This document shows, one piece after another, positions 60,315-62,177 of a DNA stretch of 64,000 nt. This DNA comes from Raja brachyura. Its lineage: Eukaryota. How positions within the stretch are numbered: position 1 is the first letter of the stretch; each line of letters starts with the position of its first letter. Position numbers and translations under genes: made by a program. The DNA is taken from the NCBI GenBank assembly GCA_963514005.1, contig OY740806.1, positions 22,196,001-22,260,000 on the forward strand, written 5' to 3'. The notes beneath the pieces are model-generated. The model did no database searches. It worked only from the letters and a program-made list of their open reading frames with translations, and was not told the origin of the DNA.

Positions 60315-60399
60315 CTGAGCTAGAAACCCCGACTACGTTGCTTGGCTCACTGATCAGGTCCTGCATGACAGCCATTACACGGAATTCATACCAGGAGTC
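60315..60399 (-). CDS. IGSF9B: IGSF9B coding exon, FN3-2 C-part (DSWYEFRVMAVMQDLISEPSNVVGVSS)
   Basis: FN3 YEFRVxA motif. Acceptor ccctctgtcag|, donor CAG|gtaagc. 85 bp, phase 0 to 1. Confidence 0.95.
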
Positions 60400-61636
60400 C
60401 TGACAGAGGGAGGAAATAAAATGTCCACTTTTTATTCTGTTATCTCTGATACGCATTTTCTCCTTACTTGTTCTTTAAGTAGAACCATAATTTTCTACAA
60501 GGATAAATCATCCCTTTTGCCTGTTAACATTTGAATCACCACTGCAAACATGAAAGGACACAGAGTTTAATGTTTAGAGTGCATTACTGGGGCGGGTGGG
60601 ACTAATGTTTAGCATGAGCAACTTGGGGTGAAGGGCCTGTTTTCATGCTTTAAGACTCTATGATTCTATGCTAGTTATGATCAAACAAGGACCCCACCTG
60701 CAATCACCTGCCCTCCTGCCATTGTTTACACCCATTGGAGTGCATTGACCAAACTGTGTTTTGATTTCTGCTCCATCCAGCGTCTTCCATCTCTCTCCCA
60801 ACCAGAACTCGACGACCTCTGCATTTACAGAGAGCCTTTCATCTTTGCAGAATGAGGAGTCCTTCATCTTATCATACATTGTGGTTTGATCTCATTCAAA
60901 TAGTTAATCCATTGCACTAAAAGCATTGTAAAGTTTAGCCTTCCAAGGTGAAAGTCAAGGTAAATGTTCACCTTGATGCTTCGGTAGTAATGGGGAAGAG
61001 GAAACCAGTCTCCCGCCCAATGTTCATTCCATTCAAATTATTAGAATTAAACTCAGTCGGGATCTGTAATGTGTTCACACTGCAATACAGGTCCCTGAGA
61101 TTAAAATGTGCCATATGACCAGAGAAAAAGACTCTATCAAGAGTGTATACCACAGCATTCCACTGTCTAATTGGTGGGTTCAGTTAAAATGGTGCATCTG
61201 TTTAACATATCATGGAACGCGGGGTGGACCATGCTTAGGCCAACACCAGCTGAGGAGAGGCTGAGTGGTTACTCCACAGAGTGCAGGAGAGTTCCTCCAA
61301 GCTCTACACTTTCCATGTTTGGCCCACAGCTATTGTTGTTCCCCAAATAGGAATTACCTTCTTATGGACAAAAGACCAGGAAGTAATCCCTAGATGTGAT
61401 CACGCTGTCTATATGATACCGAAACACATCATGGCCTCTCCACAAGGCTACCCTGCAATTAGCTTGAGATCTGTTCTTGGGCACTAGGGAACCTGCTGCA
61501 TGGTATTATTGGCCCAGATAAATTGATTAAAGAAACCAGGTCCAGCATTAACAAATTACAGGTTTAGTCTAACACACCCCCACCCTGAAAATGGTGATCA
61601 ATTACCTCATGTCAATATACTCTTTCGTGGGACCAG

Positions 61637-61812
61637 GGAACTGCAGATGCTGGTCAATACACAAAATGATACAGTGCCAGAATAACACAGCAGGTCAGGC
61701 AGCATCTCTGAAGAACATGGAAAGGTGACATTTTGGGTCTGAAGAAAGGTCTCAACCTAAAACATCACCTATCCTTGTTCTCCAGAGATGCAGCCTGACC
61801 TGCCGAGTTAGC
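61637..61812. mobile_element. Palindromic Penelope-derived short element (degenerate hammerhead)
   Basis: Same family; ctgaagaaaggtctcaacctaaaacatc core. Confidence 0.7.
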
Positions 61813-61950: not shown

Positions 61951-62177
61951 CAGAGATAACTCCTTGGTCAGCAATTCGGTTTCAGTGCCAGGTATTGCTT
62001 CATCTAAAATCTCCCACCGTTCTCCCAGACGGAACTCCATGATATAATGGCTGATCGGATAGCTATGGTTGGCTGGTGTAAGCCAAGACAGCAATACTCC
62101 TTGGTGTGTTCGATTGGCTGTTAGGCACCTTGGTGGAGAAAGCAGCACCAGTGGTTCTCGGGTGGTTATAGGGAAAG
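61951..62177 (-). CDS. IGSF9B: IGSF9B coding exon, second FN3 domain N-part (AFPITTREPLVLLSPPRCLTANRTHQGVLLSW...TKELSL)
   Basis: Peptide resembles vertebrate IGSF9B FN3-2 as recalled. Acceptor ttcactctttcag|, donor CTG|gtaagg. 227 bp, phase 1 to 0. Confidence 0.95.

What the first reader, a model, noticed from the sequence alone, without database searches (positions are those of the whole stretch)
60730..60818. Hidden, synonymously diverged copy of part of the FN3 exon in the next intron: relic or cryptic alternative exon
Seen: minus-strand 60816-60769 encodes VVEFWLGERWKTLDGA, and the true exon at 62043-61996 encodes IMEFRLGERWEILDEA. That is 10/16 aa and 33/48 nt identical. Four shared residues use different codons (CTG/TTG, GAA/GAG, CGG/AGA, TTA/CTG), the pattern expected from selection on protein rather than neutral decay. 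A TGCAG acceptor before 60818 and a weak GGT|GTAAAC donor after 60730 would give an 89-nt exon of phase 1 to 0, the same phases as the 227-nt exon. Inference: an ancient tandem exon duplication, possibly a mutually exclusive exon that remodels the second FN3 domain of IGSF9B. The splice signals are weak.
Basis: partly seen in the sequence, partly recalled or inferred. Interest (0 to 1): 0.8.

Follow-up and report, generated by a model that had tools for sequence, protein, structure and literature searches.

The report
Dead copy of an IGSF9B exon
An intron of a skate's nerve-cell adhesion gene IGSF9B holds three worn fragments of the exon just before it, in the same order and broken by a stop codon and a frameshift, so it is likely the dead remains of an old exon duplication and not a working alternative exon.

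Summary
The match is real and larger than reported. The 48-nt piece (33/48 nt, 10/16 aa) is the best hit among 502 real intron tiles under a codon model (p about 3e-7), and 11 of its 15 mismatches are transitions. Two more fragments lie upstream in exon order (FPITT, 60997-60983; HQGEHLP*LSP, 60978-60946; chain p about 0.001-0.03), so most of the 227-nt FN3 exon was copied in tandem. The copy is dead: a stop at the conserved Trp codon, a 50-nt loss with frameshift, a 99-nt gain and no acceptor at its start. The proposed 89-nt exon is not supported. One related species has a 10-nt deletion inside it, it varies at the intron rate (6/89 against 15/220 sites), its donor is poor, and no shark, ray or skate protein examined contains it. 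Four changed codons alone are no sign of selection, since chance hits show more. Over all blocks a modest synonymous excess remains (neutral simulations reach it in 0.5-6%), so the copy may once have been translated. Splicing could not be tested. The scan has noted such relics in other genomes. New member of a known kind.

The parts
61951..62177 (-). Live IGSF9B exon (227 nt, phase 1 to 0) for the N-terminal part of the second FN3 domain; source of the copy
   Evidence: Pfam fn3 profile positions 1-51 of 84, E 0.0028, below the curated cut-off; identical in protein to Amblyraja, Leucoraja and Rhinoraja records
60983..60997 (-). Relic block 1: FPITT = exon codons 1-5; 5/5 aa, 12/15 nt, all three changes synonymous; no AG acceptor in front of it
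60946..60978 (-). Relic block 2: HQGEHLP*LSP against HQGVLLSWLTP = exon codons 24-34; stop at the Trp codon; starts 19 nt after the start of block 1 where the exon has 69 (50 nt lost, frameshift)
   Evidence: organism F also lacks one base at 60954
60817..60945 (-). 129 nt of single-copy DNA where the exon has 30 nt (net gain of 99); origin not found
60769..60816 (-).
60730..60818 (-).
   Evidence: 10-nt deletion at 60732-60741 in organism E; 6 of 89 sites variable against 15 of 220 beside it; donor 4 of 9 consensus positions
60315..60399 (-). Next live exon (85 nt, phase 0 to 1), end of the FN3 domain
61634..61810 (.). Dispersed repeat between the live exon and the relic
   Evidence: many copies at about 80% identity
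60590..60680 (.). Short dispersed repeat remnant downstream of the relic
   Evidence: 39 other places among the 40 candidates scored, of 206

Best explanation
Three worn fragments of the 227-nt FN3 exon lie in order about 1 kb downstream of it, with a stop codon and a frameshift, and are likely the dead relic of an old tandem duplication of that exon, which the spliceosome is predicted to skip today. Shown: the three colinear blocks, the stop, the 50-nt loss and 99-nt gain, the missing acceptor at the copy's start, and intron-like change in related species. Inferred: a local duplication copied at least codons 1-60; including both copies would shift the frame (227 is not a multiple of 3), so one copy was left out of the mRNA and decayed; this happened within cartilaginous fishes and before organisms A-F split. 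Whether the copy was dead from birth or served first as an alternative exon is open, at about even odds.
For: Codon homology score 26.9 nats, best of 502 real tiles, next best 17.8, fitted p 3e-7. 0 of 87 simulated chance peptide hits reach 69% DNA identity; their mean is 47%. 11 of 15 mismatches are transitions, p 0.002-0.004. Two further blocks, not used in the discovery, lie in exon order: chain score reached by 9 and 12 of 8000 random 300-nt stretches, and by 48 and 230 of 8000 800-nt stretches. Stop and indels. The orthologous intron is present in all five related organisms laid (B-E; D, E, F), with a 10-nt deletion in E and 6/89 against 15/220 variable sites, Fisher p = 1.0, while the live exon is unchanged in protein in three named skates. 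The relic is single-copy in the genome. It reads His at codon 24 and Ser at codon 33 as 29 of 33 cartilaginous-fish proteins do; 112 and 111 of 115 other proteins have Gln and Pro, and the 4 skate proteins have Thr at 33.
Against: By peptide score alone the match is ordinary at gene scale. Anchored DNA extension from block 3 fails both ways, p 0.81 and 0.91, and plain gapped DNA alignment upstream is only marginal, p 0.02-0.10 for 254 nt and 0.2-0.4 for 814 nt. No trace of exon codons 61-75 or of flanking intron was found. Blocks 1 and 2 are short, and the model depth (0.3) was chosen near the best fit. In block 3 itself 3 of the 4 changes seen in D, E, F are synonymous, too few to test. The dating rests on single codons, each one step from another state.
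Confidence: 0.9

Rival explanations
1. A narrower form of the best explanation, counted within it: after the duplication the copy was spliced as a mutually exclusive alternative exon under selection on protein for a long time, and only later lost its splice sites and decayed.
For: Over the 32 codons of the three blocks, differences fall 11, 4 and 15 at codon positions 1, 2 and 3; a model with a constrained period fits better than decay from birth, 2dL 8.98 for three blocks and 6.53 for blocks 2+3. Neutral simulations with the same block search reach 6.53 in 7/1516, 20/1355 and 16/732 matched runs; constrained ones in 164/1314, 276/1308 and 428/1151. The copy spans the exon from its first codon.
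Against: Block 3 alone gives only 3.56, and capping the depth at 0.4 lowers the values to 4.99 and 2.56. If the live exon's silent sites evolve 1.5-2 times faster than intron, neutral runs reach 6.53 in 61/1368 and 95/1540. The finding was picked because of its synonymous look. No second copy appears in the 33 cartilaginous-fish proteins examined that hold the domain (30 of 45 members of the two main clusters were listed).
Confidence: 0.42
2. The resemblance is chance: an intronic stretch that happens to translate like part of the neighbouring exon.
For: tblastn E = 0.55 in the window and 3.4 over the gene; an antisense hit about 320 kb from its exon scores 57; a scan of very many windows will meet rare matches.
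Against: DNA identity, transition bias and codon-model score lie far outside chance hits; two independent colinear blocks.
Confidence: 0.05
3. The 89-nt piece is a live mutually exclusive exon that replaces the 227-nt exon in frame and remodels the second FN3 domain.
For: AG and GT in phases 1 and 0 with an open frame between them; the AG and the GT show no change in D, E and F.
Against: Such an AG and GT pair flanks 3774 of 20000 random open 16-codon spots; the donor matches 4 of 9 consensus positions, and 69 of 92 GT sites of the intron do as well or better, against 7 and 8 for the real donors; pyrimidine tract 0.47 against 0.71-0.88. A 10-nt deletion in E breaks the frame. Orthologous ORFs P0121 and P0152 carry K>M in the motif, and P0152 has Leu at the donor's Val codon, which removes the GT if the alignment is colinear. 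29 codons would replace 75 and drop about the first 30 of the 84 Pfam fn3 positions, which by general knowledge of the fold removes its first strands.
Confidence: 0.02
4. The 89-nt piece is a poison cassette: included after the live exon, it shifts the frame and would send the mRNA to nonsense-mediated decay.
For: Inclusion puts a stop 60 nt before the next junction, beyond the usual 50-55 nt rule (recalled).
Against: No raised conservation, weak splice signals, and the likeness to the exon would play no part in that frame.
Confidence: 0.03

Closest known systems
Mutually exclusive exons from tandem exon duplication (Hatje et al. 2017, PMC5740500, passages read; Martinez Gomez et al., PMC9741552, passages, and PMC8373072, abstract and supplement search; author names recalled)
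   Same: A homologous copy of an internal exon in the adjacent intron, same strand; exon length not a multiple of three, as in 60% of the human clusters in PMC5740500.
   Different: The copy has an in-frame stop, a frameshift, the wrong length and no acceptor at its start. IGSF9B was not found in the supplements searched (10 files of PMC5740500; 1 file of PMC8373072 with ACTN1 as positive control).
SCN alpha exon 5a/5b duplicates, with unannotated, partial and lost copies (PMC12772994, outline and section 5 read)
   Same: Exon copies found by translating neighbouring introns; partial copies and lineage-specific losses occur.
   Different: There intact copies are used in many species; here no intact second copy is known in any species examined.
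GNAQ/GNA11 exon 4.1/4.2 duplication kept in some vertebrate lineages and deleted in others (PMC5896119, passages read)
   Same: An old single-exon duplication whose second copy is lost by lineage: the model for the once-translated reading.
   Different: An intact alternative copy is documented there; for IGSF9B it is only a possibility.

Membership tests
Mutually exclusive exon from tandem duplication | Sequence similarity to a neighbouring exon, in the adjacent intron | tested here: met
Mutually exclusive exon from tandem duplication | Similar length (within 60 nt, in steps of three, per PMC5740500) | tested here: not met
   89 against 227 nt; the whole relic has -50 and +99 nt changes
Mutually exclusive exon from tandem duplication | Same reading frame, no in-frame stop | tested here: not met
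   Whole relic: stop and frameshift. The 89-nt part is open here but frameshifted in organism E
Mutually exclusive exon from tandem duplication | Usable splice sites at both ends | tested here: inconclusive
   AG and GT exist but are weak and common; none at the copy's true start; only a simple consensus count was available
Mutually exclusive exon from tandem duplication | Junction reads to both flanking exons | not testable with these tools
   No run on record as RNA was offered
Mutually exclusive exon from tandem duplication | Coding constraint across related species | tested here: not met
   6/89 against 15/220 variable sites, 3 of 6 changes non-synonymous, one frameshifting deletion
Poison (NMD) cassette exon | Inclusion gives a premature stop more than about 50 nt before a junction | tested here: met
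   60 nt; geometry only
Poison (NMD) cassette exon | Conserved sequence and splice sites | tested here: not met
Decayed relic of a tandem exon duplication | Colinear, same-strand homology next to the source exon | tested here: met
   Three blocks in order
Decayed relic of a tandem exon duplication | Disabling lesions and intron-like evolution | tested here: met
Decayed relic of a tandem exon duplication | Not part of a dispersed repeat or of a paralogous gene | tested here: met
   Only the own place is found with DNA; one further hit at E 4.45 with the ORF; the paralog on C24 is about 43% identical to the exon and reads YLLESWQGNGWRLMHSA at block 3

The most novel reading that the evidence does not exclude
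The relic is the skate corpse of an unannotated mutually exclusive exon of IGSF9B, born in early cartilaginous fishes, that swapped most of the membrane-proximal FN3 domain and is still intact and spliced in some rays, sharks or chimaeras.
Probability: 0.08. Interest if true: 0.55.

Novelty: new member of a known kind. Interest (0 to 1): 0.2.

Why it matters
As it stands it is a readable fossil of exon duplication: slow evolution in cartilaginous fishes leaves fragments alignable, but nothing here changes what skate IGSF9B does. It would matter more if an intact copy survives in rays or sharks, because that would give a synaptic adhesion protein (IgSF9b at inhibitory synapses: PMC3678166, abstract start in listing) a lineage-specific ectodomain switch not found in the human catalogues searched.

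Tried and rejected
RNA: no RNA holder listed. None of this is evidence for or against splicing. The wide lay had its tables cut by repeats (40 of 165 difference rows shown), so exon-against-intron rates were not counted from it. Metagenome scan with the exon: 529 pattern hits, none a relative. Searches with the 77-codon intronic ORF found only two unnamed ORFs that are 93% and 88% identical; none among longer proteins; the profile search of 1.84 billion representatives added two weak hits, an HMG-box protein and an unrelated one, taken as chance. These searches have little power for an intact second exon in sharks. Source from the paralog IGSF9 on C24: rejected; tblastn showed no relic beside its exon, but the codon model was not run there. 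A second, more decayed copy of the exon's 3' end inside 60945-60817 was suggested by a loose alignment but is not significant. Similarity of flanking introns: none, p 0.96 and 0.54. One search used a next-exon start one base off; its cassette and pyrimidine values were redone. Literature: searches for IGSF9B with splicing, isoform, skate or shark terms listed no paper on this; only listings were seen, and subscription journals are largely not held. PMC10587355 (passages) gave no yearly rate, so no absolute age is offered; PMC10115646 (passages) dates the shark-skate split to about 286 million years. Earlier notes on look-alike stretches in other genomes: none.

Full report
Setting. The window holds the 3' part of IGSF9B (turtle homolog B) on the minus strand. 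The exon at 62177-61951 finds only turtle homolog B among named hits and is identical in protein to Amblyraja, Leucoraja and Rhinoraja records, so the genome is a skate's. The gene spans about 400 kb of G000:C26. The intron after this exon is 61950-60400, and the next exon is 60399-60315.

Observation.

Is it chance? The peptide score of 55 is reached by 1 of 3000 shuffles of the intron and about once per 10,000 intron lengths in 228 Mb of simulated DNA (14 hits). At gene scale that is not decisive: E = 0.55 in the window, 3.4 over 414 kb, and among 7320 tests of 15 exons against real intron tiles 2 reach 55, this one and an antisense hit far from its exon. The DNA tells more. The 87 chance hits scoring 50 or more average 47% nucleotide identity and none reaches 69%. 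11 of 15 mismatches are transitions against 37% in chance hits, p 0.002-0.004. A codon model of descent gives 26.9 nats, the best of 502 real tiles, next 17.8, fitted p 3e-7.

The copy is larger than reported. The same model finds two more blocks upstream in exon order: FPITT at 60997-60983 (codons 1-5) and HQGEHLP*LSP at 60978-60946 (codons 24-34, exon HQGVLLSWLTP). As a chain they are matched by 9 and 12 of 8000 random 300-nt stretches and by 48 and 230 of 8000 800-nt stretches, depending on gap cost. They played no part in the first observation, so they are independent support. Against: plain DNA extension from block 3 fails, gapped DNA alignment upstream is marginal, and codons 61-75 and flanking intron left no detectable trace. 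The relic is single-copy and sits between two dispersed repeats.

The copy is dead. Block 2 has TGA at the Trp codon; 50 nt are missing between blocks 1 and 2, shifting the frame; 99 nt are gained between blocks 2 and 3; no AG precedes block 1. The proposed 89-nt exon starts inside the gained DNA, not at the copy's start. In-phase AG and GT flank 3774 of 20000 random open spots, the donor matches 4 of 9 consensus positions (69 of 92 GT sites do as well), and the pyrimidine tract is 0.47 against 0.71-0.88 at three real exons. Twenty runs from 9 studies hold part of the region. All five related organisms laid carry the orthologous intron. Over 60682-60990, D, E and F show 13-15 other letters in 309; E has a 10-nt deletion at 60732-60741, inside the proposed exon. 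Variable sites are 6 of 89 inside and 15 of 220 outside (p = 1.0); three inside are synonymous and three are not (R>K, K>T, G>R). The AG and GT themselves are unchanged in D, E and F. Two unnamed ORFs from other data sets add K>M in the motif, and one has Leu at the donor's Val codon. None of the 33 cartilaginous-fish proteins examined that hold the domain carries an alternative version (30 of 45 members of the two main clusters were listed). Included as a cassette the piece would give a stop 60 nt before the next junction, but nothing marks it as a conserved poison exon. Splicing itself could not be tested.

Was it ever translated? Four changed codons prove nothing: chance hits have four or more in 92-100% of cases, and a dead copy also differs at silent sites because the live exon goes on changing there. 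Over all 32 codons the differences are 11, 4 and 15 by codon position, and 11 of 21 shared residues differ in codon. A model with an early constrained period beats decay from birth by 2dL 8.98 (three blocks), 6.53 (blocks 2+3, which is what the automatic block search keeps) and 3.56 (block 3 alone); capped at depth 0.4 the first two fall to 4.99 and 2.56. In matched simulations 6.53 is reached in 0.5-2.2% of neutral runs, 4.5-6.2% if the exon's silent rate is 1.5-2 times the intron's, and 12-37% with a constrained period (one search gave the same picture at 8.98). That is a likelihood ratio of a few to about twenty, on a case chosen for its synonymous look. I put past use as an alternative exon at about 0.42.

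Age (inference). The relic reads His at codon 24 and Ser at codon 33 like 29 of 33 cartilaginous-fish proteins; 112 and 111 of 115 other proteins have Gln and Pro, and the four skate proteins have Thr at 33. The neutral fit gives about 0.3 changes per site per branch against about 0.04 between this genome and D, E, F. So the duplication likely falls within cartilaginous fishes and long before these species split. Single codons are weak dating evidence.

Comparison. It works like the first step of mutually exclusive exon birth, and it is not a member of that class: length, frame and conservation criteria fail (PMC5740500, passages). Partial and lost duplicates are described for SCN exon 5 (PMC12772994, section 5) and GNAQ/GNA11 exon 4 (PMC5896119, passages). 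IGSF9B was not found in the supplements of two human catalogues or in the main text of a third paper, whose supplements were not searched. The scan's own notes list similar relics in other genes and genomes; they are unchecked and used only as leads.

Verdict. A real, previously unnoted but ordinary relic of a tandem exon duplication, confidence 0.9; live exon of either kind 0.05 together; chance 0.05. Interest 0.2.

Noticed in passing
window 17465-17406, 13044-12994, 12339-12209, 8161-7745 (minus): Several small 3' exons of IGSF9B match different skate and shark isoforms (Rhinoraja, Amblyraja, Chiloscyllium), pointing to alternative C-terminal ends.
   Followed up: no
window 60945-60817 (minus): The 99-nt gain between blocks 2 and 3 is single-copy and loosely resembles the exon's own 3' end and donor; not significant.
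   Followed up: partly
window 60970-60933: No substitution listed in D, E or F over most of block 2, only a 1-nt deletion in F; p about 0.07 at the local rate, post hoc.
   Followed up: partly
window 61810-61634: The dispersed repeat matches itself and its copies on both strands, so it has an internal inverted part; some copies elsewhere continue in 66-nt steps.
   Followed up: no
L041 6521-6640 (G000:C26, about 22,586,500): An antisense stretch scores 57 against the first FN3 exon; taken as the chance control.
   Followed up: partly
G000:C24:20125709-20137909 (L003, L046, L047): A second turtle-family gene, likely IGSF9, with a LINE-like reverse-transcriptase fragment (recognised from recall) right after its FN3 exon.
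   Followed up: partly
window 60891-60661 (minus): A 77-codon open frame covers block 3 and was called as a gene in unnamed contigs of relatives (P0121, P0152); it ends earlier there and is broken in E, so it is likely incidental.
   Followed up: yes
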